A stretch of DNA of 64,000 nucleotides, taken from contig NC_087250.1 of assembly GCF_037042905.1 (NCBI RefSeq), positions 27,530,001 to 27,594,000 of the forward strand, written 5' to 3'. Each line of letters opens with the position of its first letter. The first letter of the stretch is position 1. Made by a program: the position numbers and the translations under genes. This document shows, in pieces, positions 4,291-63,780 of this stretch. The notes under the pieces were generated by a model. That model searched no databases. It saw only the letters and a list, made by a program, of their open reading frames with translations, and was not told the DNA's origin. Source of the DNA: Lytechinus pictus. Its lineage: Eukaryota.

Positions 4291-5908
4291 AAAAAAAAAT
4301 TGTCATGCATGTCCCCTCCCGGGCTCCGTAAAAAGCCATGTTAACGTGAATTTTTGTTGCATGTGGTCGTAACATAAAGCTATTACGTAATAGCTTCATG
4401 GTCGTATCATGCATGCACTGTACTGCGTGCCCGTGTGTATAACGTATTTCGATATGGCTGTTGGTTGTGCGAAAGACGAAATCAGAGAGCAGGAAGTGGA
4501 AAGCGAACTACCCGATTTCGTTTTCGCTGTCTGCGTTTTTCCAAACAGAATCAGGGGGTAGAAAGCGTGTTCTGATTTTGTTTTTAATATATAACAAACA
4601 CAGGTATAGAATGAGGTATCAGAGAGGACCAAAAGTATTTCTGATTTCATTCTTCTGTTTTTGATCTCCAAAAATGAAATCACAACAGGTTTTTCTCGTT
4701 GTGATTTCGTTTTTGTGTTTTCAGAGACCAAACCATGAGGTTGATTTCCGTTTTTGCTCTACGAAAATCAGGAATGAAAAACGAATTATCCATTAGTACC
4801 CTGATTATCCAGGCAACCAGGCATATCTGAATACCTACGTAGCGAGAAAGCAAGTTCGCGAGAGTCGGCAGTCACAGAGGAAGAAACAAACACAGATGCA
4901 ACAGCTTCAGGAGATGAAGAAGAATCCGACTCGTATCTATCTCCCGAAACACCGAGCCCTAAAAAACAAGGGGAAAACCCCGTCAAGCGTAGGAGAAAAC
5001 AGAAAAAATGAAGAAAAAAAAATTGAACAGTAATTATTCTTGAAAGGTGCAGAGATGGTCCATATCTGTTCTAACTTGAAAACGCAGAATCTACACCTCA
5101 TTTCTCTTAATGTCAGAGGCATTCGGAATAAAGTAAAACGAGGCGTTATATTCCCATGGTTATCTTTTCAAAAAGCGAATGTAATTTTATTACAAGAAAC
5201 CTTCTTAAAGTATACACACAAAGAAAATTCACGAAAGTGATGATTATAGACAAATTATATATGAATGGAAAGGTCTTGTCTTTTTATACACAAATATGTC
5301 ACTAAAAAGTCTTATCGATGTCGTGGAAATGCAAGAAATGAAATTATTAGAGACCATTCTAAGCCCCCCAGCCGCCCCCCAGACCGACAGTTCACGCAGT
5401 GAAAACAGTCGAGAATAATGACGTCACACAATAATCGAGCTCATCATCCCTCTGTGCATAATAGTACACTGAATCACCTTACTGACCTCTTCAATATCTT
5501 CCGAATTTACCGTTTTCTTCATGTAATGTGACATCCGAATTCTGTTTTCGACAACTTCAGACTATAAGGGAACCAGAACTGTGTTATTTTGCCCGTTTTT
5601 TATTGAATTGTGAACTGGAAAGATCGATTTTGTCCACTCGACAGTCTTCGTTGTGTTGCTCTACTAACTATTGAAAAACTCCAAGCTGCACGGTCCCATT
5701 CACTTGCTCCCGATGCATGTTGCAGGCTACGCTGTTTGATCCAGTCAAAAGTCAAGGTAAGCATGTTTGGAAACTGTACTTGTTCTGACGATGCATTCAG
5801 GTCAGATGACAGATACAGATCTGATATAAGTTTAGAATCATGCATTTTGGCATAACTACTATTAAAATTAAAAAGTTTTTATTTTAGAAATAATGTTTTT
5901 GTACAATT

Positions 5909-8359: not shown

Positions 8360-10565
8360 CATCGCCCTAATAGGAAGGCATTTTTAAGATATATGAAAGA
8401 AAGTCCGCTCGCCGCTGTTTCCTAATAATGCTTCGGCAATTCAACTGCAATTTCAGTCATTTCGCGATGGATATTGCCGTGTTTTTTTTGTGATTCCTGA
8501 CTTTGCTACTTAATGAAATTTCATAATTTTTGTTCAGTCATAAAGAAGAATGTCTATGCTTTATATTGACTATAACATTAATGTGACGCAAGTGTGATTT
8601 CTACGTGAAAATATGCTTTGTTTATTCACCTATATTTCTTGAAAAAAAAAAAAAAATTCTAAGCTAAATATCGGTCACCAAAATACGTTAAATGTGCACT
8701 TTTTTTCACTGTTCAGTAAATTCAAACTTTTATCTATATAACAAGACCAATCTTAAGAGGAATAAACAATTCTAAGAGCAAAAAACGCTGATTGGAAAGA
8801 TCGTCTCCAATGGGCTGCTGTCAGCTCAGCTGCTCACTGCTCATTGTGTGACGTCACTCAGCTGGAGCTCGCAAGAGGACCGGTGGAAGGCAGAAATATG
8901 GCATGAAAATAAATCATTTTTGAGAGCTGATTTCTGCAATCTCTGATCACTATTTTGAAAAGTGAAGTTATATATCTGATTAGTAATACTTCCCCTTTAC
9001 AATGATGACCACATAAAGTCATTATAAAATACTTTTGATTCTTTGGATGTATACTTTAACAACTGAACTGGAATATGCGTTTAGATCATAAAAATGTGGT
9101 GAGCTGTGCTTTTTCAACCATGGAACAAATCATTCTAAAGGCGTTGTGACTATAATAAAAAAAAACAGGATAACATTGAAATACTCGAAACTTTTGTGAA
9201 ATTCGACGGAAGGGCAATCGCTGTAAGATTAAGTGTTAAGAAAAAAGTATACTTTCTTCTAAATGTTTATGCCCCTACTAAAAAATCTGAAAAAGAAATA
9301 TTTTTCAAGATAATGTATAACTGGATAAAAGATATAAAACAAAAGGGTGATTTACTCGTATTTGGAGGTGATTGGAACTGTGTACAAGATCCCAAGCTTG
9401 ATACCCAAGGTTGTTCACAGGCTTATAAACAAATTAAAGGGTTACAAAATATTCAGAATAAATTTAGTCTAAGTGACGTATGGCGAAAATGGTATCCACT
9501 CGGAAAACAATTTACCTGGCGTCAATTATCGTTAGGTATATCATCTCGACTTGATTACTGGTTGATTTCTTCATCATTGTATTGTAATGTCCAAAGTACT
9601 GATATCAGACCTGCAATCAAGTGTGATCACTGTGTCATATCACTAAAATTAAGGATAGAAAGTGTTACGAGAGGAACGGGGACATGGAAATTTAATAATT
9701 CATTATTACATGATTCTGTCTATAAGAAACATATTAAGTATATTATAAACTCTACATCATTTCAATGCTATATGAATGCAAGAACCAAATGGGACATTAT
9801 GTAAAAAATAAGGATTCGAGAGTTTACCATGAAATTCGGCAAGCAAAAGCAAATTGAAAAGATGGAATGGTATAAAAGAACGTACGAAATGTACATGTTA
9901 TTGTGCAGGAATGTTGACAGTGGTAATTACGAAAGAAACGACATAGCAAGAATGAACGATCTGAAAACAGATATTGAAAAATGGTATGCACATAGATGTA
10001 GGGGCGCATTTGTAAGATCTCGCGAACGGTGGATGGAATCTGGCGAAAGATCTAACAAGTATTTTCTCAATTTAGAAAAGAAAAATGGAAAACAAAAAGA
10101 AATTGACTGTATAAATAAAAATGGAAAAATTGTTACTGGTAATGGAAACGTTCTTAAAGAAATAACAAAATATTACAAAGACTTATACTAAAAAAAGTCT
10201 TTAAGTGTACATTCCGAAATAAAAAAGTACCTAAAAAATACAAATTTAACTACTCTTTCTGAGGATGATGCACTGGCTTGTGAAGGCTTAATAACAGAAA
10301 AGGAATGTTTTGAAGCGTTAAAAATAATGAGAAATAACAAATCTCCCGGCAGTGATGGACTAACTGCTGAATTATATCGGTGCTTCTGGGATGATTTAAA
10401 GTATATGTTGATCGATAGTTTAAACGAATGCTTTGAAAGTCAAGAGTTGTCTGAAAGCCAGAAACAGGCCGTCATTACACTGTTGCATAAAAAAGGTGAC
10501 AAGAGAGTAATAGACAACTGGAGACCAATTTCATTGTTGAACATTGACTACAAGATCCTTGCAAA

Positions 10566-12501
10566 GGGTGATTGCATTCGTGTCGTACGGGACATTTAGG
10601 GAACATTTGACAGTTTTTTGACAAGAAAAACTAAAAATATTCCAGTAACTAAATGTGATCATCAAGTACTACCAGAGTGTTAGAAAAACCAAGACTTAAC
10701 ATGACTTTAATTCACATCCTGTATAATACAGATTTAAAGTAGTAATGTGTCGTACGGACGCAGAAAAGGTGGCTTTTTTAGAAACCTCAAGTTTGTACTC
10801 TAAAGTCTGTGAGTTGGACAGATAATTTTCATAGAAACTGAACTAAAATTGATATTCAATTACCCAAGAACAAACACATCTATGAAAGAAAGCAAAATAA
10901 TCCTTCATGAATAAATAAAGCAAATTGCAATTTTCGAGAACATTGTGGGGTACGGGACACTCAAAATGTTACGGGACATTTCTAAATTGAAGCCAAACTT
11001 TCTTACTTTATGTCTCTTTGACTTCTTCAATCACTTTATTTGGCTGATGATAATGATAATCCTATCAAACTAAAGACATTAATTATGTTAGAAACCGCTA
11101 TTGGCTGAATATTTCTTTCAATTATCATAAACAAAAAAATGTGTCGTACGGGACACTTGTGTGTCGTACAGGACACTTCTGTGTCGTACGGGACACTTCT
11201 GTGTCGTACGGGACACTTGTGTGTTGTACGAAATGTTGTACTCGGCAGCCTGAATAAAACAATGACCTTTTTACTAATCAGAAGGGGAGCATTGCCCCTA
11301 AATTCTTCGTTTTTAATGAAAAGTCTTTTAATAAGTAGTCATTCAGGACAATATAATTAAGTAACCTCAATATATACAATCGGGAGCAATATGTTATCAT
11401 TTTTTTCATGATGGGAAATGTACAAGGGTTCACAGCATTTTTACGAGCTGAAAAATTTGAGGTTTTGTGTGAAGTTATATTTAGTGAATTAATTGATGCT
11501 TTCCAATACACTATTTAAACAATGAATGAATGAAACTCTTTGTGTAAATTATGGGGCTAAAATGTTATAATTTTTTACATAAAATGTTTATACACTAGCG
11601 TACCTACGGGGGGGGGGGGGGGCAGGGGAGGGGGCACTGTGCCCCCCCCCTGACGAGCCACAACCCATACAAAAGACATATACCTGCCCCCCCCCTGACG
11701 AGCTTGAAGACATTTATAGGGTGAATCAATTTTAAAGGTTTTCTTTTCATGCTCAATGATTAATTGGAGGGATTCACAAAAGAATACGCCTACATGAAAT
11801 CAATTAAAATGGTTAGAATCACCTATTTCATGTTCTATGGAGATAAAAAAGTTCTTTTTCAGTTCACTTTACGTCAAATCAATTACTTGAATTAAAATAG
11901 GTCTACTATTTATAGTTTCTGAATCCAAATCATGTAATTAAATGTAGTATATATTGTGTGTCGTACGGGACAACTATTAATAGGACGATTATTGACAAAT
12001 GAAGAACACTAATTAGATCCTTATGGGATAAATCGATCACCCATGGGTCAAAGATAGAGAAACTGATTTGGTGAAATTGCATCATCAAAAATAAAATTGT
12101 AAGAAAAACTTTTGCACTTTCATGTGTCGTACGGGACATTGCCAAAAATAGGTTCGGAAAAATCAGGGCTGCCGCTATTATGGAACATGAAAATGCTGTA
12201 GATATTATTTGGAACATTCAATGATACATTATTCCATTGACCTGCAATATTTTCAGTCTTCTCGTGCTTTGCCAATAGTTGTTTCAGGCAGTGTTTGTAC
12301 TTGACTATTTAATCAGCAAAATTATTGAAAATTGAAAATTCAATTTTCCCCCTAAAAAAACTATATCTGACTTTACTTTTGGTTAAAATTCATTATTTTC
12401 ATAAAATTTAGGTATCATAGTAAAATATTACACTAATTATGACTTTATTGAAAGCATGTTGAAATTTATGATATTTTTGAAGTTTTAGTGTGGAATCGCC
12501 C
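10566..12501. mobile_element. Non-autonomous DNA transposon (GGG ends, 3-bp TSD; PIF/Harbinger- or Zator-like) inserted in the LINE RT domain
   Basis: GGGTGATTGCA...TGGAATCGCCC; TSD AAA; empty site cttgcAAAagcac in copy 2 (~59020-59032). The motif gtgtcgtacgggaca recurs throughout, with a 20-bp tandem at 11140-11230. Confidence 0.85.
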
Positions 12502-13780
12502 AAAAGCACTTTGTAAAAGATTGTATACTGTGTTAGAAAACATAGTCTCCGCAGATCAGACTGGTTATTCAAAACAACGTTCCTCTGTACAAAACATCCG
12601 CCTTGTTTTAGATACTATTGAATATTGTCACTACAAGAACTCCCCAGGGATTCTAATTTTTCTAGACTTAAAAAAGGCATTCGATAACATTAGTCACGAA
12701 TTCCTTTTTCTGTTACTAGATAGACTGAGGTTTAAAGAAACTTTTAAAGTTTGGGCTAAAACTCTTTTTAACAATGCGATAGGGAAGGTAATTAATAATG
12801 GTTGGGTCTCCCAATAATTCAAAATAGAGCAAGGTGTGAGGCAGGGTTGCGCTTTATCAGGTCTCCTCTTTATACTGGTCACCGAAGTCATGGCAGTGAG
12901 AATAAAGCAAAATGCTTACATTAATGGAATTCGAATTCCCTCAGAAAATCCAGTCATGCCAGTTGGTATTGTTCAAGAAAATGTCGTTATGTCACAATCA
13001 GACAATTGGCAGACGACGCTGTTATTTTTGTAAACTCTATAGAGTCGGGAAATTTGGCTTTGAAAGAAGTTGAAACGTTTGGTCTTTTAGCATGCCCAAA
13101 ACTAAACTTAATGAAAACAAATGCTATGTCTACCTCTTTCCAAGAAAAGGAACTGGACAATTTAGCATGGACAAACCAGCCCATAAAATACCTCGGTGTA
13201 TACATTTCCGCCAAACAAAAAGAATGTGAAAGTTTAAATTGGGATTTTAAAATTGAGAAGGTGAGATCTCTTTTGAGGGTATGGAAAATGAGAAACCTGA
13301 TATATTATGGAAAGATAACAATTATAAAAACACTTATTGTTTCTCAATTTGTATACATTGGGACATGTTTACCAATTCCAAAGAATACTATGACTAAACT
13401 TAACAAATTAATTTACAGTTTTCTTTGGGGTTCCAAAAAAGAAAAAGTCAAGAGAGCGGTTGTTACTCGCTCTCCAGCAAATTGGGGGTTTAGATATGGT
13501 AAACCTAAGAACCAAATTTTAATCATTACAATTATCTTGGTTCACAAAATACCTTAAAGGTGACAAGTCACAATGGAGACTATTTTTTAAATTCTGGATA
13601 AACCTTATCGGAGATGTATCGGAGGTTTTGAGAATGAACTGTTCGAGTAAAGATATGCCTTTTTTATGTACGAAGTTCAAATTACCAGAGTTTTATGTCA
13701 ACCTACTTATGTACTGGAGTGAACTGAGATACGTTCATTTTAATAACGTTAAAGACGTGTTCGATCAAGTATTATGGTAC

Positions 13781-14374: not shown

Positions 14375-16185
14375 TTATGGTACAATAGCAATATTAAACA
14401 CGGAAATGACCTCTTATATTTTAAAGAGTGGAAAGCTAACGGGATTGAAAAAGTCAGTGACCTTTTTGAAAATGGGCAGTGGATATCGTGTGACTCCTTA
14501 CAAAGACGATTGGGCACAAATTCATTGTTAATACATTTCAAATTTTCTAAATTGAAAAAGGCATTTCCAAAAGTATGGGTGAGTGAAACAAGAAATACAG
14601 TTTACACCAAAGATGAAACAGAAAATGAACCAGAAATGTTTGAAATATCATCTGGTGATTTCATTAAAGTTTGTTGCATGAAAGCAAAACATTTTTATTT
14701 ATTACTAAATGAATCAGAACAAGAGAATCCCTCTGTTTCAGGGTGGTGGGAGGAAATTTGTCAACTACCAGTAGATTATTAATGGAAGCACGTATTAGAT
14801 TTTAAGTTGAAACATATCAGAGATAATAAAGTGAGACAATTTAATTTCAAATTATTGCACAATATTTTGCCCTTTTAGAAAAAAATCTTTTTAAATGGAA
14901 GATCTCGTCAAACATTATTTGCTCATTTTGTAACGAACCTAAATCATCTATTTACGTTTTGTTAAAATGTCACCAAGTCACTGATTTTTGGAAAAAGGTT
15001 CACATTTTAATACTAGATTGGTTTCAAAAAGACATTTATTTAGAAGAAAAGAATATTGTAATTGGTTTTGAAATCAGTGAGTCTAAATTTAATTTGATTA
15101 ACCTATTATTAATTTATGCACAATATGCAGTGTACAAAGTATATATGTTAAATTACTTCAAGAATAAATTGTTCAATAGTCAATCAATTTTGGATGGTAT
15201 TTAAAAATGATTTCAGGAATTATGCTCAGTGGAAATAGAAAAATAAGAAAGATGTTTCAGAAGAACTTGAAAAGTTTCTGTTTTAGATACTCTTACCATT
15301 TCTGCATCTGTATTTACTTTTTTTTTCTATACATGTTGATTAATTTTGTATACACGTGATTATATTGTTATTTGATTTGATTTTATGAAATAAAGTACCT
15401 CAGAAGAGGAAAAGAAAAAAAATATATATATATGTGGATTTATTTCCTTCATGAAAATATGATTAGAATTAGTGGTCTTCAAATGCCGTGTTTTATGTGA
15501 CTAGGAAATAAAATAATTCAACACGCATTTAAAGCACTTTTCTTGCTCGGCGGGGATGGACGAGGCGCATTTTTTTCTGTCTAAAAGGGCGCCAAAATCA
15601 GGTCAGGTTTTGGCCCCTCCCTACGAAATCCCTGATCTTATTATCATTATTCTATACATGAGGAATTTCGTATAACATTTTTTTACAATGAAAAGAGCCT
15701 TTAGTCTTTTTCTCTTCGAACATTTAAATTTCGCTGTAAAGTATGCTCACTGCGTATACTAAATTTTGGCCCTAAACATCTTTTTGACATTGTTTGTCGT
15801 TTTCTCTACGCACTATCATAATTTATTTCCAAAATTCTTTGCAATTTGAGCACTGATCCACGTTTATCATGAGCTAAAAATAAAAACCATACCTCCTAAT
15901 TTGTGTATACACTGCACCTTTTCGTGTATCCGTGTTTAATAATACATTATACAAGGATCTTAATTCAACTAAAGAGAAAAAAAAGTATTAAATTAAGCGT
16001 TGTTTTATCGGTTCACAAAACAAAATCTGAGAACACTTTCACTGTAAAGGTTTCTTAAAAAGCGAGATAATGTTTAATATACCCTCGTAATTTTTTGTTC
16101 AAATGTTTCTTGAGTTAATTTTAACTTTTCTTGCTTTTTTTGTTTTGTTTTTTAGGTAGGCTACTGTCCCCATTTTCTCTTCGTC

Positions 16186-17848
16186 ATGGCGTCTAAGTTC
16201 CCAACAAAGAAGGGTGGAGAGGTAGAGCTTCGTACAAGGAAAGGTCATGACATGACCTGGTCATGTGACAAGCATGGTGAGCCAATCAAATTTTACTGTA
16301 AGAAACACAAAATTCCCATATGTCATCCATGCGCTACCAAAAATCACAGCCAGAAACCATGTGAGCTAGACGACATCGAGGATGTTATCTTCGAAAGGAG
16401 AAGACAGCTAGATGAAAAACGGCCAATAATACAGGAACTTCAGAAACAAATGGAAGCCCTCAAAGCGAAAATAAAGACTACATCAACGTCTGGAAGTACT
16501 CATCTTCGGAAAATTGACAACAACATTCAAGCTTCATATTACGACAAGATCGATTCTGTTGGAGAAAAGGAGAACAGGATGATTAGGGTTATTAACGAGG
16601 AGGCAGATGAGGAAATAAGACTAGTAAATGAGAAGAGAGAAAAACGGATCAAAGACTGCAACACCGAGAGAGAAAAGGAGCGACAAATCATCAGAGACCA
16701 AAAAGCAAAACTTTTATCAGATGCAAAGAAAATCAGCGAAGTTGTTTCTAAGAAGATCAAAGATCTTGCTAATAAGAATCAGCATGTAATAAACACTGTA
16801 GAGAACATTGAATCAACCATCAAACGTATAAACCAACATGATGAAACATTGGTGAATGAAGCTCCTCAAGTACTTGCATCTATTGATGAAAATTTTAATT
16901 TTAATGTTCATCAAGATGTTAGCGATTGTCTTGACCGAATACAGAATGAAGTTGAGAGAGTGAAATTTGTAGAGGGGGGAAGTAGGTGGAGAATACTATG
17001 GTAAAATTGATGGGTATATCGGTAAATGGGAACTTGTCAAATCAATCAACATTCCATCGGTTGTTAATAACCCGTGTGTGCGTGGTTTAGTCAGTGATGA
17101 TGAGATATGTGTGCGAGACGAAGATAACAAAGACATGTATATTACAAACATCAACACTCAACACACAGAGAAAGTCATTGATGGAGGTGTGTGTATTACA
17201 TCATGTGCGCCCATAGACAGTAACGTAATAGTATGTGGAAAGTGGAGAGATGATTGCACGGGCGACAGGTTGAATGGATGCATCACTCTCTATGACAGAC
17301 AATGGAAGGTGATTAGAGACATCAGCATACCAAGGAATGGATACAGCAATCGTGTGTATGTTGATGTTGACAGGGATGGGATGATCATCGCTGCTCAGTA
17401 CAATCAGTCTAATATCTACGTCATCAATCCTGCTAATGATAAGATAGTAAACACTATTACGATGCAGGGTAAGAAGGTGTGGGGTGGGATACAAGCCTTG
17501 TCATCAGGTGATATCGTTGTTGAGACAAGTTATGATGAATACACTGTCATCTCACGATCAGGAGAAGAGAAGGCACTCATACACTGTGGTGAGTGGGACT
17601 GGTGGTCACAGTGTCGCGTTGACAAACTGACAGACACACTCTACATCGCGTACTGGGATGGAGCGCGTAATACCATCGCAGTTGATCAGGCGTCACGTGA
17701 TGGTATCATCCAGGCAAGGAGGATCGTGGAATACGTGAAATCAGATCGCTTTCACTATTTCAGCCCTTGTCTTGTTACTCCTTCTGGTAACCTCGTAGGA
17801 TGTGATGGAGACAAACTTCTTATCTACAAGAAGACATTAATCTTGTAA
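16186..17848 (+). CDS. B-box / coiled-coil / beta-propeller (RING-less TRIM/NHL-like) protein, copy 1; ~553 aa if one +1 frameshift in a G6 run (16974-16979) is corrected
   Basis: B-box-like CDKHGEPIKFYCKKHKIPICHPCATKNH; long charged helical segment; repeated beta-strand blades (VYVDVDRDGMII, IQALSSGDIVV). Polypyrimidine+AG acceptor at 16141-16155. Copy 2 is in frame across the break. May be a pseudogene or a homopolymer sequencing error. Confidence 0.8.
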
Positions 17849-18311
17849 ATCATCTAGACTATCAAAGGAATCATATCGGATTTGTAAGAGAAATATAGAC
17901 CAGAGATTTGTTTTCACTTTTACTTCCATTTCAATTTACGTCCTTCTAGCTCTATATGTACGTGACTACATTCATATACACATGGCCATGGTGTGTATAA
18001 TGTTGTATCAATCCATATCAAATAGAAAAATTTCGCTAATATCCACTCCGTCTAGATTTAGGTCTGTAATGAATGCCCTCAGATCCAAATGAATAGTTTA
18101 CTCGAAACCTGAACAAAATAAATGCAAAATGTGTTAACGAATTGCCTACTTGAACCAGATGGTTATTGTAGAAAGTCTTTTAGAATGGCTGAATTCAGTA
18201 TTGAACGTGTTAATAACTGATTAACTGATGTTATTCTCCTAATAGTGATCGGATTATTCCTCGATTAAAATTGCTCTCAGCTTTTAAGGTATTTGATTCG
18301 AATCAATTAAT

Positions 18312-42099: not shown

Positions 42100-45000
42100 C
42101 TAAACTCTAGAAAGTGCATCCGCAATAACATTGTCATTTCCCTTGATATGAGTCACGTTCAGCCCATAAGGCTGAAGAAACAGACTCCAACGGAACAATC
42201 TCTGGTTCTTGTTCCTAAACCTTTCGAGGAAGGTTAGTGGATTGTGATCCGTGAAAACGGTCACATCAGGGCAGCTACTCAAATACACATCAAAGTGTTG
42301 AACTGCCAGCACCAGACCTAGGCACTCCTTCTCTACCGTAGAGTATCTTTGCTGGTGTACATCAAGCTTCTTCGAAAAGTAGCTCACGGGTTTCATGAAA
42401 CCCTCTTCATCCAACTGAAGGAGAACTGCACCAACTCCTACCTCACTTGCATCAGTGGCCAGTAGGAACGGATGCTCAAAGTTAGGAGCCTGCAATACAG
42501 GCTTTGAGATAAGAACAGCTTTCAATTTCTGAAAGGCAATCTCACATGGTTTGGTCCAATCAAACTTGGTCCCCTTCTTGAGAAGATCTGTAAGAGGAAT
42601 AGCAATGTCACTGAAATTCGGAACAAACTTGCGGTAAAACCCACACATGCCCAGAAACCTCATCACCTCCCTCTTTGTGGAAGGGGCAGGGAAATCCACA
42701 ATAGCTTGGATCTTTGCCTCTCGTGGGGCAACGCGTCCATGCCCTACTACATGACCCAAGTAAGATACTGTTGCCTGCGCAAACTCACACTTGGACAAAT
42801 TCACAACAAGTCCTGCCTTGGTCAATCTGACAAACACATCTCTCAAGCAAGTTAGATGATCTGACCAGGTATCACTAACTACTAGAATATCATCAAGATA
42901 TACTACAACATTGTCCAGTCCGGCAATTACACAATTCATGAGCCGTTGAAATGTTGCTGGAGCATTCCTCATGCCAAATGGCATAACCCGACACTGGAAT
43001 AACCCCTGTGGGGTCACAAATGCAGAGATTTCTTTAGCCCTCTCTATTAATGGCACCTGCCAATAACCTTTCATCAGATCCAGCTTTGTGATATACCTTG
43101 CATTACCAATCTGATCAATGCAATCCTCAATACGAGGTAGAGGAAATGAGTCAGGTTTTGTTACAGCATTGACTTTCCTGTAGTCAATGCAAAAACGCTG
43201 ACTCCCATCTGGTTTTGGAACAAGAACTACAGGTGAACTCCAGCAGCTCTGACTAGGCTCAATGACACCGCATGCAAGCATATACTCAAGTTCCTTCCGC
43301 ACCTGGCTCTTCTTTCTTGGCTTCAAACGGTAGGGATGTTGTTTAATAGGCAGATGATCGCCTACATCAACATCATGAATAGCCTCTCCGGTATATCCCA
43401 ACTTATCTCCACATACTTCAGGGTAATCAAGAAGTATTTGCACTACATCCTGCTGTTCAAAATCTGATAGATGACCCAATATCTTTGAGGGATCAGCCAT
43501 CACCTGTGAGTTATTCACCTTTCCAGACATCCCTTCACCAATCTCCGCTTCCACCGGGATTTCAAGTTCTGCAGGAATATGTTCTGCTGCCTTTTCACAA
43601 ACAACAGCAACTGTCACCACCTCGTCACGATCATAATACTTCTTCAGCATATTAATATGGCAAACCCTCTTTGTTTTTCTCCTGTCTGGAGTACTCACAA
43701 GATAGGTTTCTTTACCCAAGTTCTTCTCTACCACATATGGACCACTGAACTTTGCTCTAAGAGGTTCACCCTGGATGGGCAGTAACACAAGGACTTTGCT
43801 ACCAGGCTCGAATGAGCGAGGTTCTGCCTTCTTATCTGCCCGGGCCTTCATTGCACCTTGAGACAACCTCAAATGTTCCCCCGCGAGTTCACACGCCCTC
43901 AAGAGTCGTTCACGAAATTGTGACACATAATCAAGCACATTCCCACTCTCCATCCCAAAATCTGACAACATATGCTCCTTCACTACCTTGAGAGGACCTC
44001 TTGGCTCATGGCCAAACACAAGCTCAAATGGGGTGAATCCCGTAGATTCATTTGGAGTATCACGAGAGGCAAATAGGAGGAAAGGAATGCCCTTTTCCCA
44101 GTCTCCAGAGTTCTCAGAGCAGTAAGACTTGATCATTGTCTTTAAGGTCTGATGGTATCTCTCAAGGGCACCCTGCGACTGTGGGTGGTAAGGTGATGAG
44201 TTTACCTGCTTGATTCCTAATTGATGCATCACCTCCTGGAATACACTAGACGTGAAATTAGAGCCCCGATCTGACTGGATGTCTTGAGGGAGTCCATAGC
44301 GTGTGAAGAACACCAAGAGGGCATCAATAACCGTCTTAGCCTTAATGTTCCTCAACGGAAAAGCTTCTGGAAAACGTGTGGTGGAATCCATGACAGTAAG
44401 CAAGTATTGATAACCTGCCTTGGTTTTCGGCAAAGGGCCAACACAATCTATCAATACACGGCTAAATGGTTCAGGAAAAACAGGAATTGGAATAAGTGGG
44501 GCTGGTTTGATGTGATGTTGTGGCTTGCCCACCACCTGACAGACATGACATGACTTACAATACTCAGATACGCACTTCCTGAGACCAGGCCAGTAGAAAG
44601 GAGCCCTAATCCTGGCCACTGTCTTCCTCACACCTAGATGTCCAGCAAGGGGAATATCATGAGCTAACCTTAGAATCTCTGCTCGATACTGGGGCGGGAC
44701 AACAATCTGATCTACCGCAACCCAATCTTCATCAGCTGGGCGACCAGGAGGACACCATTTTCGCATCAACACACCAGACTTGATGTAATAACACTGTGAG
44801 ACCTTCTCAGCCTCCTCTGCTGTCAAAGCAACATGATACAAACCCTTCAAGTCTGCAGCTGACTGTTGGGCTGCAATCAAGGCAGGCTGGCTGAAAACAG
44901 TCCTATCATCACCAGTCTGACTATTCATTCTCTCACTCAGATCTCTGAAAATTGTATCCCCTAAATCTATGTCACCACCATTTTCAACCTCTCTCTCATC

Positions 45001-46662
45001 TCGCCCTGCCATAGCCTGCGCTCTGGTAACCGCACACGATGGAAAAATACATGGGATAGCCGTTTTCATAGCCTCTGTCTTGGAATCCACTACCGGCATG
45101 TCACTCAACACAGTAGATGGCTGCACCTTACCCCCAGCCAAATCATTGCCAAGCAGCATTGTGATTCCCTTCATAGGCAATCGAGAAACAACGCCAACTG
45201 TCACTCGCCCAGAAACCAGCCCACTACAAAGTTCTACATCATATAGAGGAACAGATTTGAAACCCTCATTCACATCTTGGATCAGAACTCTCATGCCTGT
45301 GAAACTAGATTCAATGGATGACTCATCAGCAATTAATAGTGTCTGAACAATGCCAGTATCTCTCAAAATCACAACAGGAAATTCCTCTCCATCAACAGTG
45401 AACTTCACCGTGCCATCAGAAATAAATTCCTTGTATCCTTCATCCACCCCATCACGAAACGTCTGCTTTACCCCATCACCACACACAGGGTCTCCTACAC
45501 AAACCGTAGCCGGCCGAACAAAACCGCTGGCCTGGACTTTATTCTGACCAGTATTCTTGTCCTTTAGTTTCTGACAGTGAGAAATAAGGTGCCCATCCTT
45601 CTTACAGTATGCACAAAACAACCTGCCCTCTGGTCTAACACCATTAGACTGGCTACCACCACTCAACTTACTCTTCGGCGACTTTGACCTCTCCATTTCC
45701 TTATGTAACGTCTCGGACCTACTCCAACCAAAACCACTCGCTAACGGACTAGAAGGTTGGAGCTGCGATGCGCTACTTCTATGTGACAACTCATACCCAT
45801 CTGCCAACATTGCAGCATTTCTGACACTAACAACAGCATGATCATTCATGTACGTTTTAACATCACGGGACATGCATCTTGTGAACTCATCAATCAAAAC
45901 AACCTCACGCAGTGATTCATATGTCGTCTCAATTCTCAGAGACCGGATCCATCTATCAAATGCGACCTCTTTTCGACGTGCAAACTCAACACAAGTCTCT
46001 GCAGAATCCCTCTTGAGATCACGAAACATCTGACGGTATGCCTCTGGGACTAGCTCAAACGCCTGAAGGATGGCATCTTTCATTTTCCAATAGTCAAAAG
46101 CGTGATCATAGCTCAGTGCAGACACGACAGACTGTGCCTTGCCTGAAATTACTTGCTGAATGAGCAATGCCCAGTCACTTTCAGGCCATTCCATTTTCCT
46201 GGCTACTCTCTCAAACAAAAGAAAGAACGAGTCTAAATCAGTCTCATCATACCTTGGAATAAGCTTTACCCTGGCAGAGAACCCAGCTTCCATTGACCTT
46301 TTCTCTCTCTCACCCAACTGCCCACTCTGAGACACAATTTCACTATGCCGCATCATCTCAAACTCCAGTCGCTTTCTTTCCATTTCCCTCTCATGCTCAG
46401 CAGCTCTCAGCCTATCTCTTCTTTCTTCTAGTTCAATACGGGCCAGTGCAAGCCGTACTTCATGACTGTCAAGTTTAGTTCTGTCATCACAATCATTATC
46501 AGAATCACCACTCATACTTTCAGGTATCAATTCCGCACGGGCCGCAATAGCAGAAAATAACTCTGCCTTAGTCTTCAAATCCGAAAGATCTTTACGCAGC
46601 TGACGCAAGCGAACGAGTGTGAGGTCTGCCTCTAAAAACGTATCTACATTAAACTGTGCCAT
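42100..46662 (-). CDS. Gag-Pol polyprotein of a Gmr1-like Ty3/Gypsy LTR retrotransposon (Gag-PR-IN-RT-RNase H)
   Basis: Zinc knuckle CAYCKKDGHLISHC; protease LRDTG; integrase HHCC, LIDCVGP/SDRGSNF/LERYH and GPY; RT FCIDYRKVN, MPFG, YLDD; RNase H TDAS, EKE, TDH, ADALSR. Uninterrupted 1520 aa. Confidence 0.97.
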   Translation of the reverse strand: MAQFNVDTFLEADLTLVRLRQLRKDLSDLKTKAELFSAIAARAELIPESMSGDSDNDCDDRTKLDSHEVRLALARIELEERRDRLRAAEHEREMERKRLEFEMMRHSEIVSQSGQLGEREKRSMEAGFSARVKLIPRYDETDLDSFFLLFERVARKMEWPESDWALLIQQVISGKAQSVVSALSYDHAFDYWKMKDAILQAFELVPEAYRQMFRDLKRDSAETCVEFARRKEVAFDRWIRSLRIETTYESLREVVLIDEFTRCMSRDVKTYMNDHAVVSVRNAAMLADGYELSHRSSASQLQPSSPLASGFGWSRSETLHKEMERSKSPKSKLSGGSQSNGVRPEGRLFCAYCKKDGHLISHCQKLKDKNTGQNKVQASGFVRPATVCVGDPVCGDGVKQTFRDGVDEGYKEFISDGTVKFTVDGEEFPVVILRDTGIVQTLLIADESSIESSFTGMRVLIQDVNEGFKSVPLYDVELCSGLVSGRVTVGVVSRLPMKGITMLLGNDLAGGKVQPSTVLSDMPVVDSKTEAMKTAIPCIFPSCAVTRAQAMAGRDEREVENGGDIDLGDTIFRDLSERMNSQTGDDRTVFSQPALIAAQQSAADLKGLYHVALTAEEAEKVSQCYYIKSGVLMRKWCPPGRPADEDWVAVDQIVVPPQYRAEILRLAHDIPLAGHLGVRKTVARIRAPFYWPGLRKCVSEYCKSCHVCQVVGKPQHHIKPAPLIPIPVFPEPFSRVLIDCVGPLPKTKAGYQYLLTVMDSTTRFPEAFPLRNIKAKTVIDALLVFFTRYGLPQDIQSDRGSNFTSSVFQEVMHQLGIKQVNSSPYHPQSQGALERYHQTLKTMIKSYCSENSGDWEKGIPFLLFASRDTPNESTGFTPFELVFGHEPRGPLKVVKEHMLSDFGMESGNVLDYVSQFRERLLRACELAGEHLRLSQGAMKARADKKAEPRSFEPGSKVLVLLPIQGEPLRAKFSGPYVVEKNLGKETYLVSTPDRRKTKRVCHINMLKKYYDRDEVVTVAVVCEKAAEHIPAELEIPVEAEIGEGMSGKVNNSQVMADPSKILGHLSDFEQQDVVQILLDYPEVCGDKLGYTGEAIHDVDVGDHLPIKQHPYRLKPRKKSQVRKELEYMLACGVIEPSQSCWSSPVVLVPKPDGSQRFCIDYRKVNAVTKPDSFPLPRIEDCIDQIGNARYITKLDLMKGYWQVPLIERAKEISAFVTPQGLFQCRVMPFGMRNAPATFQRLMNCVIAGLDNVVVYLDDILVVSDTWSDHLTCLRDVFVRLTKAGLVVNLSKCEFAQATVSYLGHVVGHGRVAPREAKIQAIVDFPAPSTKREVMRFLGMCGFYRKFVPNFSDIAIPLTDLLKKGTKFDWTKPCEIAFQKLKAVLISKPVLQAPNFEHPFLLATDASEVGVGAVLLQLDEEGFMKPVSYFSKKLDVHQQRYSTVEKECLGLVLAVQHFDVYLSSCPDVTVFTDHNPLTFLERFRNKNQRLFRWSLFLQPYGLNVTHIKGNDNVIADALSRV

Positions 46663-47363
46663 ATTTCTCTATCCAGTAAATTGACATAAAAAAAAGAAGA
46701 ATGAAAGAAAAGAAACAAGTATTTAGGAGATCTAACAACAGTATGTCTAAAAAAAAATCATTAAAATGTCATGCGCCCATGCCACGGACCAGGCTATGTC
46801 ACACGCGTTTCAGTTTTGAAACCATATGTTCAGGTCTAATGTCAAAATAGTATGACCTAGTCTAAGAGACAAAAAAAAAAAGGTCACATCAAAAACTCCT
46901 CTATTCTAAGAGTCTAACTCTAACGTTAAGGCTCTAGAATGGCATAGGACCTAGACTGACTCAAGAATCAAGGATAGGTCTAAATCATCAAAGTAGACAA
47001 CGTTACGAAATGTCCTTGCCGGCCAAACTCATCCAGGCAATGAACAGAGCAGAATCGCGACGAAAAATGTCCTGGAAAGTGCAGAAAAATGCACAGTATT
47101 GACAGTAAGAATATTAAATAGCACCAGCCAACGACTGCAGTACAAGCTATTTAATAAATAGACCTAAATCCTGAAATCGAGACCACAAACAACGCCTACG
47201 CTACATGTAACTTAGTACAGAAGTAGCCGAGACAAGCAAGCAGTAGGCAAATGCCAAAGCAGAGAAAACCCCGACATCAAATTAGATACGTGGGACAATA
47301 ACGTAAACAAAAGCGAGATCGGACACAACCCGAGCAAGACAAATGGCTTGTAAAATTATATTT

Positions 47364-62111: not shown

Positions 62112-63780
62112 ATGGCGTCTAAGTTCCCAACAAAGAAGGGTGGAGAGGTCGAGCTTCGTACAAGGAAAGGTCATGACATGACCTGGTCATGTGACAAGCA
62201 TGGTGAGCCAATCAAATTTTACTGTAAGAAACACAAAATTCCTATTTGTCATCCATGCGCTACCAAAGATCACAGTCAGAAACCATGTGAGCTAGACGAC
62301 ATCGAGGATGTCATCTTCGAAAGGAGAAGACAGCTAGATGAAAAACGGCCAAAAGTTCAAGGACTTCACAAACAATTGGAAGCCCTCAGCACGAAAATAA
62401 AGACTGTGTCAACGTCTGGAAGTACTCATCTTCGGACAATTGACAACAACATTCAAGATTCATATCACGACAAGATCGATTCTGTTGGAGAATCAGGAGA
62501 ACAGGATGATTAGGGTTATTAACGAGGAGGCAGATGAGGAAATAAGACTAGTAAATGAGAAGAGAGAAAAACGGATCAAGGATTGCAACACCGAGAGAGA
62601 AAATGAGCGACAAATCATCAAACACAAAGAAGCAAAACTTCTAGCAGATGCAAAGAAAATCAGCGAAGTTGTTGCTAAGAAGATCAAAGATCTGACTGAT
62701 AAGAATCAGCATGTAATAAACACTGTAGAGAACATTGAATCAACCATCACACGTATTAACCAACATGATGAAACATTGGTGAATGAAGCTCCTCAAGTAC
62801 TTGCATCTATTGATGAAAATTTAAGTTTGAATGTTCATCAAGATGTTAGCGACTGTCTTGACCGAATACAGAATGAAGTTGAGAGAATGAAGTTTGTAGA
62901 GAGGGAAGTAGGTGGAGAATACTATGGTAGAATTGGTGGGTATATCGGTAAATGGGAACTTGTCAAGTCAATTCACATTCCATCGGTTGTTAATAACCCG
63001 TGTGCGCGTGGTTTAGTCAGTGATGATGAGATATGTGTGCAAGTACGTAACAGTGACATGTATATTACAAACATCAACACTCAACACACAGAGAAAGTCA
63101 TTGATGGAGGTGTGTGGATTACATCATATGCGCCCATAAACAGTAACGTAATAGTATGTGGTAAGGAGAGAGAAACTGATGATTGCACGGATGGCAGGTT
63201 GAATGGATGCATCACTCTCTATGACAGACAATGGAAGGTGATTAGAGACATCAGCATACCAAGGAATGGATACGATAGTCGTGTGTATGTTGATGTTGAC
63301 AGGGATGGGATGATCATCGCTGGTCAGTTCAATCAGTCTAATATCTACGTCATCAATCCTGCTGATGATAAGATAGTAAACACTATTACGATGCAGGGTA
63401 AGGAGGTGTGGGGTGAGATACAAGCCTTGTCATCAGGTGATATCGTTGTGGAGACAGGTGGTAATGGATTCACTGTCATCTCACGATCAGGAGAAGAGAA
63501 GGCTGTCATACACTGTGATGAGTGGGGCTGGAGCTCAGAGTGTCTCGTTGACAAACTGACAGACACACTCTACATCGCGTACAGGGATAGAGCGCGTAAG
63601 ACATACGCAGTTGATCAGGTGTCACGTGATGGTATCATCCAGGCAAGGAGGATCGTGGAATACGTGCAATCATCAGATCGCCCAGTCTACAGCAGTCTAT
63701 GTCTTGTTACTCCTTCTGGTAACTTCGTAGGGTGTGATGGAGACAAACTTCTTCTCTACAAGAAGACATTAATCTTGTAA
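62112..63780 (+). CDS. B-box / coiled-coil / beta-propeller (TRIM/NHL-like) protein, copy 2; ~555 aa if the +1 frameshift at ~62493 is corrected (probable pseudogene)
   Basis: Paralogue of 16186-17848; ggagaaTCAGgagaac versus ggagaaAAGgagaac in copy 1; splice-acceptor AG at 62080-62081. Confidence 0.8.

What the first reader, a model, noticed from the sequence alone, without database searches (positions are those of the whole stretch)
17078..17848. Hypervariable patches in the beta-propeller of a duplicated RING-less TRIM-like gene: candidate diversified recognition family
Seen: versus copy 2 (63004-63780) I count about 40 amino-acid changes and three in-frame indels in ~256 aa, but only a handful of silent changes. 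The changes cluster in patches: RDEDNK/QVRNS, WR/ERET, SYDEY/GGNGF, GEWDWWSQCR/DEWGWSSECL, WDGARNTI/RDRARKTY, KSDRFHYFSP/QSSDRPVYSSL. The 3' flank differs at ~6/220 nt, the dead LINE by ~1.5%, and the N-terminal ~78 aa including the B-box by one residue. Established: TRIM C-terminal domains determine ligand specificity and are often positively selected in immunity. Inference: a tandemly amplified sensor family whose propeller loops diversify by positive selection or patchwise gene conversion. This is the best candidate for an undescribed system in the window.
Basis: partly seen in the sequence, partly recalled or inferred. Interest (0 to 1): 0.82.

Follow-up and report, generated by a model that had tools for sequence, protein, structure and literature searches.

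The report
Hypervariable propeller receptor family in sea urchin
The flagged stretch is the ligand-binding propeller of one (probably broken) copy of a large sea-urchin-only gene family whose loops on one propeller face are being driven apart by selection, which makes the family a strong candidate for an undescribed set of intracellular recognition receptors.

Summary
In window 17078-17845 versus copy 2 there are 41 aa differences in 255 aligned residues and three in-frame indels, in the patches named. Silent changes are not "a handful": there are about 13, and the two-copy dN/dS of 1.15 is not significant. Each window copy also carries a private 1-nt frameshift.

The family gives the real signal. 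The genome (proteins identical to Lytechinus pictus models) holds at least 126 matches, about 20 of them in a 1-Mb tandem array around the window. The C-terminal domain folds as a six-bladed NHL-type propeller (pLDDT 91; best matches are TRIM-NHL domains, Z 20.5-22.9). Hypervariable residues and nearly all indels lie in every second loop, so on one face. With hypervariable columns defined independently in S. purpuratus, dN/dS is 1.8-2.3 (P=3e-5). One intact pair shows 63 nonsynonymous versus 4 synonymous differences.

The propeller framework is homogenised, with dS 0.13 against 0.38-0.41 in the N-terminal half. It recombines with different N-termini: B-box, TIR, and a probable Death domain whose call stays below threshold. 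Some copies add ZU5. Immune function is inferred, not shown.

The parts
16154..16155 (+). AG splice acceptor in front of the single coding exon of copy 1
   Evidence: Sequence. Contigs of runs X1 and X2 begin to match exactly at 16156, carry 30-51 unmatched letters upstream, and give no depth over 15900-16121.
16186..17848 (+). Copy 1 coding region (B-box, coiled coil, propeller), broken by one frameshift
   Evidence: Open frames 16156-17004 and 16973-17848 lie in different frames. Alignment to copy 2. This is locus L003.
16258..16350 (+). B-box zinc finger (residues 25-55)
   Evidence: Pfam PF00643, E=3.8e-6, 27.4 bits against a cut-off of 24.1. The family profile hits the B-box/coiled coil of TRIM25 and TRIM5 at E=6e-5.
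16798..18100 (+). Approximate start (about residue 205) and extent within view of the shared 'linker + propeller + 3' flank' cassette that is near-identical among copies with unrelated N-terminal halves
   Evidence: Identity jumps to 92-100% at residues 199-209 in 4 of 4 such pairs. 3' flanks differ by 1-2%.
16974..16979 (+). G6 run: private +1 frameshift of copy 1
   Evidence: 29 of 29 other paralogues have one base fewer here; sequence. The reads did not settle whether it is real.
16985..17848 (+). Six-bladed NHL-type beta-propeller domain of copy 1 (contains the finding, 17078-17848)
   Evidence: AlphaFold model of the copy 2 equivalent: pLDDT 91.3, 24 strands. Best structural matches are NHL domains of Mei-P26, Brat, TRIM2, NHL-2, Lin41 and TRIM71, Z 20.5-22.9.
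17063..17086 (+). Hypervariable patch P1 (loop between strands 1 and 2)
17111..17137 (+). Hypervariable patch P2 (loop 3-4; indel versus copy 2)
17180..17203 (+). Hypervariable patch P3 (loop 5-6)
17240..17281 (+). Hypervariable patch P4 (loop 7-8; indel versus copy 2)
   Evidence: 28 distinct haplotypes among 29 copies..
17333..17356 (+). Hypervariable patch P5 (loop 9-10)
17390..17407 (+). Hypervariable patch P6 (loop 11-12)
17468..17491 (+). Hypervariable patch P7 (loop 13-14)
17519..17542 (+). Hypervariable patch P8 (loop 15-16)
17585..17617 (+). Hypervariable patch P9 (loop 17-18)
17651..17680 (+). Hypervariable patch P10 (loop 19-20)
17732..17770 (+). Hypervariable patch P11 (loop 21-22; indel versus copy 2)
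62112..63780 (+). Copy 2 coding region, broken by one frameshift; its propeller (62923-63777) was the modelled sequence; its patches P1-P12 lie at 62989-63756
62493..62494 (+). TC in place of A: private +1 frameshift of copy 2
   Evidence: 29 of 29 other paralogues have a single base here; sequence.

Best explanation
The flagged stretch encodes the C-terminal six-bladed NHL-type beta-propeller of one member of a large, apparently sea-urchin-restricted, tandemly arrayed gene family. This member, copy 1, carries a frameshift. The family architecture is B-box2, coiled coil, propeller, with no RING.

Shown: the loops that leave every odd-numbered strand, which all lie on one face of the propeller, are hypervariable in sequence and length in three sea urchin species. 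They are rich in Trp, Phe and Tyr. Their nonsynonymous changes accumulate about 2 to 6 times faster than synonymous ones. The strands, the opposite-face loops, the B-box and the coiled coil are conserved.

Also shown: a cassette comprising the last ~60 residues of the coiled coil/linker, the propeller and the 3' flank is kept nearly identical at silent sites across copies (concerted evolution). It is recombined onto different N-terminal modules. In the same array these include TIR and probable Death-domain exons (MyD88-like order), and some copies carry a C-terminal ZU5 extension.

Inferred: the variable face is the canonical 'top' ligand-binding face. The family is a germline-encoded repertoire of cytosolic recognition proteins. 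In this reading, diversifying selection (most plausibly from pathogens or other genetic parasites) keeps each copy's binding surface different, while gene conversion maintains the scaffold. The B-box/coiled coil (oligomerisation) or Death/TIR (signalling) modules would provide the output.

The two copies in the window are most likely young pseudogenes of this birth-and-death family, unless the single-base insertions are assembly errors.
For: Family and array:
- There are 126 own-genome matches at E<=0.001, about 20 of them at 76-89% identity within C6:27.0-27.95 Mb.
- 21 of 29 loci have an identical NCBI protein model.

Fold:
- pLDDT 91.3, pTM 0.89, 24 strands.
- The top six of 48,161 chains are TRIM-NHL NHL domains, Z 20.5-22.9.

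One-face variability:
- Mean entropy in odd versus even loops is 1.71/0.45 (S. purpuratus), 1.35/0.48 (L. variegatus) and 1.16/0.26 (this genome); Mann-Whitney P is 3e-13, 3e-8 and 3e-10.
- 32 sites have a nonsynonymous rate above the family's mean synonymous rate (BH q<0.01): 24 in odd loops, 8 at adjoining strand ends, 0 in even loops.
- Of 49 indel columns, 25 lie in odd loops, 23 in strand columns (several at strand ends adjoining odd loops) and 1 in an even loop.

Selection:
- 69 hypervariable columns were defined from 22 S. purpuratus paralogues. Over 14 independent closest pairs in this genome they give 58 synonymous and 443 nonsynonymous differences, ratio about 1.8, P=2.9e-5. The remaining 212 columns give 0.71.
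- YN00 and ML give 2.2-2.3 for all 14 pairs and 2.9-3.4 for intact-only pairs.
- The intact pair L014/L004 differs by 0.4-0.5% in the N-half and 1.1-1.9% in the flanks, yet shows 63 nonsynonymous versus 4 synonymous differences in the propeller (dN 0.097, dS 0.021; P=4e-4).
- In 8 of 12 patches every distinct nucleotide haplotype is also a distinct protein haplotype.

Concerted evolution and recombination:
- Among 18 intact B-box copies dS is 0.41 (B-box), 0.38 (coiled coil) and 0.13 (propeller).
- The PHI statistic for the whole CDS gives z=-20 to -34.
- The common boundary lies at residues 199-209 in 4 of 4 pairs.

Signalling modules in the array:
- The exons of model P0087 lie in order on the + strand with GT-AG sites, both introns in phase 1.
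- The TIR fold is supported: the top 17 VIA rows are TIR domains (Z up to 11.7) and all Foldseek rows are TIR.
- Death domain: Pfam E=0.019-0.025 over 5-82 of 86 profile positions.
- ZU5: 24.1 bits against a cut-off of 21 in L. variegatus P0013 and 21.0 bits in P0224.

Aromatic enrichment at the hypervariable sites: W 4.75x, F 3.2x, Y 2.1x.
Against: - No ligand, no binding and no immune induction is shown.
- Five S. purpuratus homologues have only 0-22 raw reads per sample in adult coelomocyte RNA-seq (supplementary file 2 of PMC13043383), so expression in those immune cells is low under those conditions.
- Both window copies are frameshifted, and their pairwise ratio (1.15) is compatible with neutrality.
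- Synonymous divergence is also about twofold higher in hypervariable than in framework columns (0.114 vs 0.055). A local mutational or conversion contribution is therefore not excluded.
- The 'framework' ratio is high (0.7-0.96), so part of the domain may simply be weakly constrained.
- My site test uses a single parsimony tree on recombining sequences.
- The assignment of the variable loops to the 'top' face rests on strand order and on the NHL repeat register, not on coordinates, which the tools did not expose.
- The Death-domain call is below Pfam's cut-off, and that part of the model has pLDDT 38-56.
- No Pfam NHL repeat is detected by sequence.
Confidence: 0.72

Rival explanations
1. There is no selection. 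The differences between the two window copies are what is left after patchwise gene conversion from older paralogues, plus neutral decay of two pseudogenes.
For: Both copies are frameshifted. Copy 1 versus copy 2 gives a ratio of 1.15, P=0.42. Coding dS (0.073-0.12) exceeds flank divergence (about 4%). Each copy is a mosaic: copy 1's 5' flank and N-half are 99-100% identical to L014/L004, and copy 2's to L002, while their propellers differ by 5-7%.
Against: This cannot explain the family. The excess of nonsynonymous change is found in pairs of intact copies (63 vs 4; ratio 2.9-3.4 in hypervariable columns). It is also found in columns chosen from another species. The B-box of the same two copies shows 5 synonymous and 1 nonsynonymous difference, so most of their divergence arose under constraint. 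Patch haplotypes are almost all unique, so donors among the 29 copies are lacking.
Confidence: 0.1
2. The loops are simply unconstrained (omega about 1), and a locally raised mutation or micro-conversion rate makes them look hypervariable. There is no adaptive diversification.
For: Synonymous divergence is about twofold higher in hypervariable columns and about threefold by the entropy classes. Indels cluster there. The short-range PHI signal (w=3-5, P=0.004-0.006) fits very short exchange tracts.
Against: The ratio is significantly above 1 by three estimators, with columns chosen independently. It is about 6 in L014/L004. Most variable loops are confidently ordered: 10-residue pLDDT blocks are at least 89, except about 79 at 81-90 and 71 at 251-260. 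Aromatic residues are enriched rather than the loops being compositionally random.
Confidence: 0.08
3. Diversifying selection is real, but the targets are not pathogens. The family could be diversified RNA-binding regulators like other TRIM-NHL proteins, restriction factors against transposons, or part of self/non-self or gamete recognition.
For: The closest folds are RNA-binding TRIM-NHL domains. The array is interleaved with LINEs and an apparently intact LTR-type element. S. purpuratus homologues have low counts in coelomocytes.
Against: Array members carry a TIR domain and probable Death and ZU5 modules, which in animals are typical of innate-immune and cell-death signalling (the functional generalisation is recalled knowledge). 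Hypervariable sites are enriched in aromatic and acidic residues rather than the basic residues expected for an RNA-binding face (the expectation is recalled).
Confidence: 0.2

Closest known systems
TRIM-NHL proteins (Brat, Mei-P26, LIN-41/TRIM71, TRIM2/3, NHL-2)
   Same: B-box2 followed by a coiled coil and a C-terminal six-bladed NHL-type propeller. They are the best structural matches, Z 20.5-22.9. The family profile hits TRIM B-box/coiled-coil sequences at E=6e-5. Recalled: these proteins bind their ligands (RNA) on the top face.
   Different: No RING and no filamin domain. No Pfam NHL repeat is detectable, and the profile hits to TRIM3/TRIM2 NHL are only E=0.04-0.28. Recalled: known TRIM-NHL genes are few, conserved developmental regulators. 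Here there are more than 100 copies with hypervariable loops and dN/dS>1.
TRIM5alpha / fish finTRIM and related B30.2-TRIM arrays
   Same: A TRIM scaffold carries a C-terminal recognition domain whose surface loops are hypervariable and positively selected. The genes lie in tandem arrays with pseudogenes. PMC2657112 (abstract and passages seen) describes this for finTRIM.
   Different: The recognition fold there is B30.2/SPRY, not a propeller, and those proteins keep the RING. No Death, TIR or ZU5 variants are recalled for them.
Fungal NACHT-WD40 (HET-E/D/R, 'HNWD') non-self recognition genes (recalled from memory, no call)
   Same: A beta-propeller serves as the variable recognition module. 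Hypervariable positions lie on one face under positive selection, combined with concerted evolution or repeat exchange that keeps the scaffold uniform.
   Different: Those use WD40 repeats on a STAND NTPase. The variability is generated by repeat shuffling within and between genes. It is a different kingdom, and there is no B-box, coiled coil, TIR or Death module.
MyD88 and other Death/TIR adaptors
   Same: Array member P0087 has a probable N-terminal Death domain followed by a TIR domain, as in MyD88. MyD88 TIR is among the best fold matches, Z 10.4.
   Different: Here the Death-TIR pair is followed by a coiled coil and the hypervariable propeller. The protein would therefore combine adaptor and sensor. 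The Death-domain call is sub-threshold.
Expanded sea urchin innate receptor families (TLR, NLR, SRCR; SpTransformer)
   Same: Lineage-specific expansion to more than 100 genes, tandem arrays and rapid diversification in the same animals. PMC13043383 (passages seen) notes 140 genes annotated as TRIM in S. purpuratus.
   Different: The recognition fold is different. This family is mostly annotated 'uncharacterized protein', and I found no paper describing its variable propeller.

Membership tests
TRIM / RBCC | N-terminal RING finger | tested here: not met
   Pfam finds no RING in copy 1, in L002 (553 aa) or in the other members scanned. The product starts 24 residues before the B-box, and the frame is closed just upstream of the exon.
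TRIM / RBCC | B-box zinc finger | tested here: met
   PF00643 scores 27.4 bits (copy 1) and 25.6 bits (L002) against a cut-off of 24.1.
TRIM / RBCC | Coiled coil directly after the B-box, TRIM-type | tested here: met
   The family profile aligns positions 27-169 and 27-198 to the B-box/coiled coil of TRIM25 and TRIM5 at E=6e-5.
TRIM-NHL subfamily | NHL repeats recognisable by sequence (PF01436) | tested here: not met
   No PF01436 hit at E<=1 in copy 1 or copy 2, nor at E<=0.01 in L002, L005, L019 and L022. The profile versus PDB sequences reaches only E=0.039-0.28 for TRIM3/TRIM2 NHL.
TRIM-NHL subfamily | Six-bladed NHL-type propeller fold | tested here: met
   24 strands, pLDDT 91.3. The top six structural matches are NHL domains with Z 20.5-22.9, rmsd 3.2-3.7 and 247-259 residues aligned. 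Other six-bladed propellers follow closely at Z about 19-20.
TRIM-NHL subfamily | Filamin/ABP280 domain between coiled coil and NHL (present in several members; recalled) | tested here: not met
   No filamin hit in Pfam scans.
TIR-domain proteins (array neighbours P0087, P0086; not the window copies) | TIR fold and sequence signature | tested here: met
   By fold, the top 17 VIA rows and all listed Foldseek rows are TIR domains (Z up to 11.7; E down to 1.8e-4). By sequence, TIR_2 reaches only E=0.005 and 17.7 bits against a cut-off of 28. No TIR or Death exon is found in the window.
Death-domain proteins (array neighbours P0087, P0099, P0224) | Six-helix Death fold and Pfam Death signature | tested here: inconclusive
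   PF00531 gives E=0.019-0.04 and 14.5-15.5 bits against a cut-off of 22.6, but covers profile positions 5-82 of 86. The model shows six helices at pLDDT 38-56.
ZU5-containing death-fold signalling proteins (array neighbour P0224; L. variegatus P0013) | ZU5 domain | tested here: met
   PF00791 scores 24.1 bits (P0013) and 21.0 bits (P0224) against a cut-off of 21.
Diversified innate recognition receptor families | dN/dS>1 concentrated on a surface of the recognition domain | tested here: met
Diversified innate recognition receptor families | Expression in immune cells or induction by challenge; ligand binding | tested here: inconclusive
   Contigs of run X1 (guessed to be RNA) cover the exon from the acceptor onwards. 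S. purpuratus homologues have low counts in coelomocytes, and four appear among scRNA cluster markers. No binding data exist.

The most novel reading that the evidence does not exclude
Sea urchins possess a previously undescribed class of germline-diversified cytosolic immune receptors. In it a hypervariable NHL-type beta-propeller plays the role that LRRs play in TLRs/NLRs or B30.2 plays in TRIM5. The scaffold is kept uniform by gene conversion while selection diversifies one face. The receptor module is plugged combinatorially onto B-box/coiled-coil, Death-TIR (MyD88-like) or ZU5-Death signalling modules by recombination and phase-1 exon shuffling within the array.
Probability: 0.4. Interest if true: 0.88.

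Novelty: new variant of a known kind. Interest (0 to 1): 0.78.

Why it matters
Sea urchins are a reference system for how animals without antibodies build large innate recognition repertoires. The known examples are TLR, NLR, SRCR and SpTransformer genes. A further family of more than 100 genes would add a new recognition fold to that list. It would have a hypervariable propeller face, a scaffold held uniform by concerted evolution, and modular links to TIR, probable Death and ZU5 signalling domains. It is directly testable, because L. pictus is a genetically tractable urchin. It would also give a second, animal example of the 'variable propeller face plus concerted evolution' design recalled from fungal HNWD genes. 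Finally, it shows that TRIM-NHL-like scaffolds, usually regarded as conserved RNA regulators, can be recruited for arms-race evolution.

Tried and rejected
- PHI test inside the propeller alone: only a weak, very short-range signal (w=3-5, P=0.004-0.006; w=50, P=0.47). I could not show conversion tracts within the domain.
- Cassette-like patch shuffling: rejected as the main mechanism, because 19-28 of 29 haplotypes per patch are distinct.
- Per-site binomial test of nonsynonymous versus synonymous counts: too little power (only a few sites at P<0.05). It was replaced by a test against the family's mean synonymous rate.
- RNA evidence: no RNA holder is listed for the stretch. Two raw RNA runs (X21, X22; about 6% of each read) laid 0 reads, which is no test. 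The contig runs X1 and X2 are only guessed to be RNA. No insertion or deletion rows appeared, and a loose end sits at 16975, so the G6 frameshift is neither confirmed nor refuted.
- Sequence search of P0087 against solved structures: nothing meaningful (E about 0.5).
- A first alignment for the Death-TIR model (A3) misplaced half of four TIR rows. It was remade with fewer Death rows as A4.
- P0018, which seemed to join B-box, propeller and TIR, is a read-through of two neighbouring genes in an older annotation and was set aside.
- Earlier notes of this scan: nothing for this genome or sequence.
- Literature: six searches and a term look-up in PMC2575513 (0 occurrences of NHL, B-box, propeller or TRIM) found no description of this family.
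Full report
**What is at the coordinates**

Window 17078-17848 lies in the last 256 codons of a single-exon gene, copy 1. An AG acceptor sits at 16154-16155, the ATG at 16186 and the stop at 17846-17848. A second copy lies 45.9 kb downstream (ATG 62112, stop 63778-63780).

Over 17078-17845 the two copies differ at 41 of 255 aligned residues and at 62 of 765 aligned bases. Several other quoted figures also hold:
- The first 78 residues differ by one residue.
- The first 220 nt of 3' flank differ at 6 positions.
- The upstream LINE blocks are 98.3-99.5% identical.

- Silent changes are not rare. The C-terminal 286 codons carry 12.8 synonymous and 53.2 nonsynonymous differences (dS 0.073, dN 0.083, ratio 1.15). 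That is not different from neutrality (P=0.42). The flanks over 1.4 kb on each side differ by about 4%.
- Each copy has a private one-base insertion that breaks the frame. Copy 1 has G6 for G5 at 16974-16979; copy 2 has TC for A at 62493-62494. Neither is shared with any of the other 29 paralogues compared.

**The family**

A search of the window's own 812-Mb assembly with the C-terminal 276 residues gave 126 matches at E<=0.001 (131 candidates scored; counts are lower bounds).
- About 20 matches at 76-89% identity lie on the same contig between 27.0 and 27.95 Mb, spaced 20-80 kb apart and all on the + strand.
- Further clusters lie at 22.9 Mb and 26.1-26.3 Mb, and on contigs 16, 13 and 8.
- An intact neighbour (L002) is 100% identical to an NCBI model of Lytechinus pictus named 'uncharacterized protein'.
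- All named hits among the 120 listed of 138 are from L. pictus, L. variegatus or S. purpuratus.

A full phmmer scan of 1.84 billion representative proteins found only 101 clusters at E<=0.001. Of 10 distant ones looked up, 4 carried names. All four were sea urchins, including Diadema antillarum.

I took 30 loci. Twenty have an intact frame with a recognised start, and six are clearly broken (L001, L003, L006, L024, L025, L028). L025 has no open frame across the propeller and was left out, so the C-terminal alignment holds 29 copies.

**Fold**

Pfam sees only the B-box (27.4 bits against a cut-off of 24.1) and nothing in the C-terminal 290 residues. An AlphaFold model of the copy 2 domain, built from a 76-row alignment, has pLDDT 91.3 and pTM 0.89. 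It shows 24 strands, that is six four-stranded blades.

Against 48,161 solved chains the six best matches are all NHL domains of TRIM-NHL proteins: Mei-P26 (Z 22.9), Brat (22.6), TRIM2 (21.4), NHL-2 (21.0), Lin41 (20.9) and TRIM71 (20.5). Other six-bladed propellers follow at Z about 19-20. Foldseek agrees, with TM 0.67-0.69 for NHL domains.

The family profile matches the B-box/coiled coil of TRIM25 and TRIM5 at E=6e-5, but NHL sequences only at E=0.04-0.28. The architecture is therefore a RING-less TRIM-NHL-like one, with an NHL fold that sequence profiles do not recognise.

**Where the variation sits**

The 29-copy alignment shows long invariant stretches interrupted by about 12 short patches that vary in sequence and length. 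The same positions are variable among 22 S. purpuratus and 19 L. variegatus paralogues.

On the model, the patches are the loops after strands 1, 3, 5 ... 23. Strands alternate in direction, so all these loops are on one face.

| Measure | Odd loops | Even loops | Source |
|---|---|---|---|
| Mean entropy, S. purpuratus | 1.71 | 0.45 | (P=3e-13) |
| Mean entropy, L. variegatus | 1.35 | 0.48 | (P=3e-8) |
| Mean entropy, this genome | 1.16 | 0.26 | (P=3e-10) |
| Sites with nonsynonymous rate above the family mean synonymous rate (32 in all, BH q<0.01) | 24, plus 8 at adjoining strand ends | 0 | |
| Indel columns (49 in all) | 25, plus 23 in strand columns, several adjoining odd loops | 1 | |

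The 32-site result comes from a parsimony count on a FastTree tree, with 257 synonymous and 1116 nonsynonymous changes in total. The 32 sites are enriched in Trp (4.75x), Phe (3.2x) and Tyr (2.1x).

In the NHL repeat register, 'VYVDVD' is strand a, 'MIIAG' strand b, 'NIYVIN' strand c and 'IVNTITM' strand d. The variable loops are then the b-c and d-a loops, which is the conventional top, ligand-binding face.

**Selection**

Over all pairs the propeller has dN about equal to dS (ratio 1.04). High-entropy columns reach dN 0.64 against dS 0.30, but that choice of columns is circular.

I therefore defined 69 hypervariable columns from S. purpuratus alone. I then counted differences in 14 phylogenetically independent closest pairs of this genome (28 of 29 copies; L026 was left unpaired).
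- Hypervariable columns give 58 synonymous and 443 nonsynonymous differences, ratio about 1.8 (P=2.9e-5).
- The other 212 columns give 110 and 271, ratio 0.71.
- YN00 and ML estimators give 2.2-2.3 for the 14 pairs, 2.3-2.6 for the eight closest and 2.9-3.4 for pairs of intact copies only. The framework gives 0.88-0.96 over the 14 and the eight closest pairs, and 1.12-1.89 over the intact-only pairs.

The clearest single case is the intact pair L014/L004. The 5' flank differs by 1.1%, the B-box by 0.4%, the coiled coil by 0.5% and the 3' flank by 1.9%. The propeller nevertheless carries 63 nonsynonymous and 4 synonymous differences (dN 0.097, dS 0.021; P=4e-4). Silent divergence in that propeller thus equals that of the flanks, and only amino-acid changes are in excess.

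By contrast, the B-box has ratio 0.25 and the coiled coil 0.38 among 18 intact B-box copies.

**Recombination and concerted evolution**

The window copies are mosaics. Copy 1's 5' flank, B-box and coiled coil are 99-100% identical to L014 and L004 (0 of 234 and 5 of 564 differences to L014). Copy 2's are equally close to L002 (1 of 362, 0 of 234 and 2 of 564). Their propellers, however, differ from those partners by 7.0% and 5.2%.

Conversely, L014/L018 and L005/L006 have unrelated N-halves (20-50% different) but propellers 3.7-4.2% and 3' flanks 1-2% apart. In 4 of 4 such pairs, identity jumps to 92-100% at residues 199-209. This defines a shared cassette of linker, propeller and 3' flank.

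Among the 18 intact B-box copies, silent divergence is 0.41 in the B-box and 0.38 in the coiled coil, but only 0.13 in the propeller. The scaffold of the propeller is therefore being homogenised across the family.

A PHI-type test is overwhelming for the whole coding region (z=-20 to -34) but weak inside the propeller. Patch haplotypes are nearly all unique: 19-28 distinct of 29. In 8 of 12 patches every nucleotide haplotype is a different protein haplotype. Loop diversity is therefore not made mainly by swapping ready-made cassettes.

**Signalling modules on the same propeller (outside the window)**

Some array members lack the B-box.
- NCBI model P0087 (795 aa, locus L009) begins with a probable Death domain (PF00531, E=0.019, profile positions 5-82 of 86, below the cut-off). 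A TIR domain follows (TIR_2, E=0.005, also below the cut-off).
- Its three exons lie in order on the + strand at 27,203,303-27,203,584, at 27,207,478-27,208,002 and from about 27,210,783. They have canonical GT-AG sites, and both introns are in phase 1. The TIR exon can therefore be present or absent without changing the frame.
- A model of residues 1-267 (pLDDT 61 overall, 75-89 in the TIR part) matches TIR domains in the top 17 rows of the wide structural search: TRAM and TIRAP Z 11.7, Hydra TRR-2 10.8, MyD88 10.4. All listed Foldseek rows are also TIR. The Death part is modelled as six helices, but at pLDDT 38-56.
- P0086 (L005) is TIR-coiled coil-propeller.
- P0099 and P0224 (L022) are Death-coiled coil-propeller. 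P0224 continues into a ZU5 domain (21.0 bits, at the cut-off of 21).
- L. variegatus P0013 is B-box-coiled coil-propeller-ZU5 (24.1 bits).
- No TIR or Death exon lies in the window itself.

**Expression**

Contigs of two public runs of the same organism label (X1, X2; kind only guessed as RNA) match copy 1 from exactly 16156, the first base after the acceptor. They carry unmatched letters upstream and give no depth over 15900-16121. In X1 every bin through the propeller and 3' flank is covered, with no listed differences between 16555 and 18003. This fits a spliced transcript of this copy or a near-identical one. It does not prove that the run is RNA, and it does not settle the G6 insertion.

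In S. purpuratus coelomocyte data (PMC13043383; passages and supplements seen), five homologues have 0-22 raw reads per sample. Four are listed among markers of single-cell clusters 0, 1 and 10. The paper's text notes 140 genes annotated as TRIM in that genome, and TRIM-like genes induced by UVB.

**Verdict**

What is shown:
- an NHL-type propeller;
- one-face hypervariability conserved across species;
- dN/dS>1 there;
- a homogenised scaffold;
- modular recombination with B-box, TIR, probable Death and ZU5 modules.

What is inferred: that the variable face binds ligands, and that the family works in immune or conflict recognition.

I found no description of this in six literature searches. 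Subscription journals and unseen supplements may hold one.

Noticed in passing
window 42100-46668 (- strand): A single open frame of 1522 aa carries a SCAN/gag-like domain, integrase (H2C2 + rve), reverse transcriptase and RNase H, with integrase ahead of RT. It is an LTR-retrotransposon-type polyprotein that appears uninterrupted. It was only observed.
   Followed up: no
window 4807-5208 + 9056-13557 and 57121-59027: LINE fragments (endonuclease and RT hits) lie upstream of both gene copies, collinear and 98.3-99.5% identical. Copy 1 has an extra 3.8 kb between the two blocks.
   Followed up: partly
G000:C6:27203303-27212387 (locus L009; outside the window): A gene model with probable Death, TIR, coiled coil and the same hypervariable propeller. 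Both introns are in phase 1, so the TIR exon is a symmetric, shuffle-ready exon.
   Followed up: yes
L022 locus (G000:C6:27.143-27.147 Mb) and L. variegatus protein P0013: In these members the usual stop is bypassed, and the propeller is followed by a ZU5 domain and a long C-terminal extension whose end looks Death-like by eye. The extension was not modelled.
   Followed up: partly
own genome, contig 8 (about 23-42 Mb) and contigs 19, 26, 37: Dozens of isolated exons 44-50% identical to the probable Death-domain exon of P0087 point to a very large Death-domain exon family elsewhere in the genome.
   Followed up: no
29-copy propeller alignment (loci L001-L030): Synonymous divergence is about twofold higher in the hypervariable columns than in the framework (0.114 vs 0.055). 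Selection on amino acids does not explain this. Older loop lineages that escape conversion, or a local mutational bias, are both possible.
   Followed up: partly
protein P0018 (older NCBI model): It joins a truncated B-box/propeller gene to the TIR exon of the next gene, so it looks like a read-through annotation artefact.
   Followed up: yes
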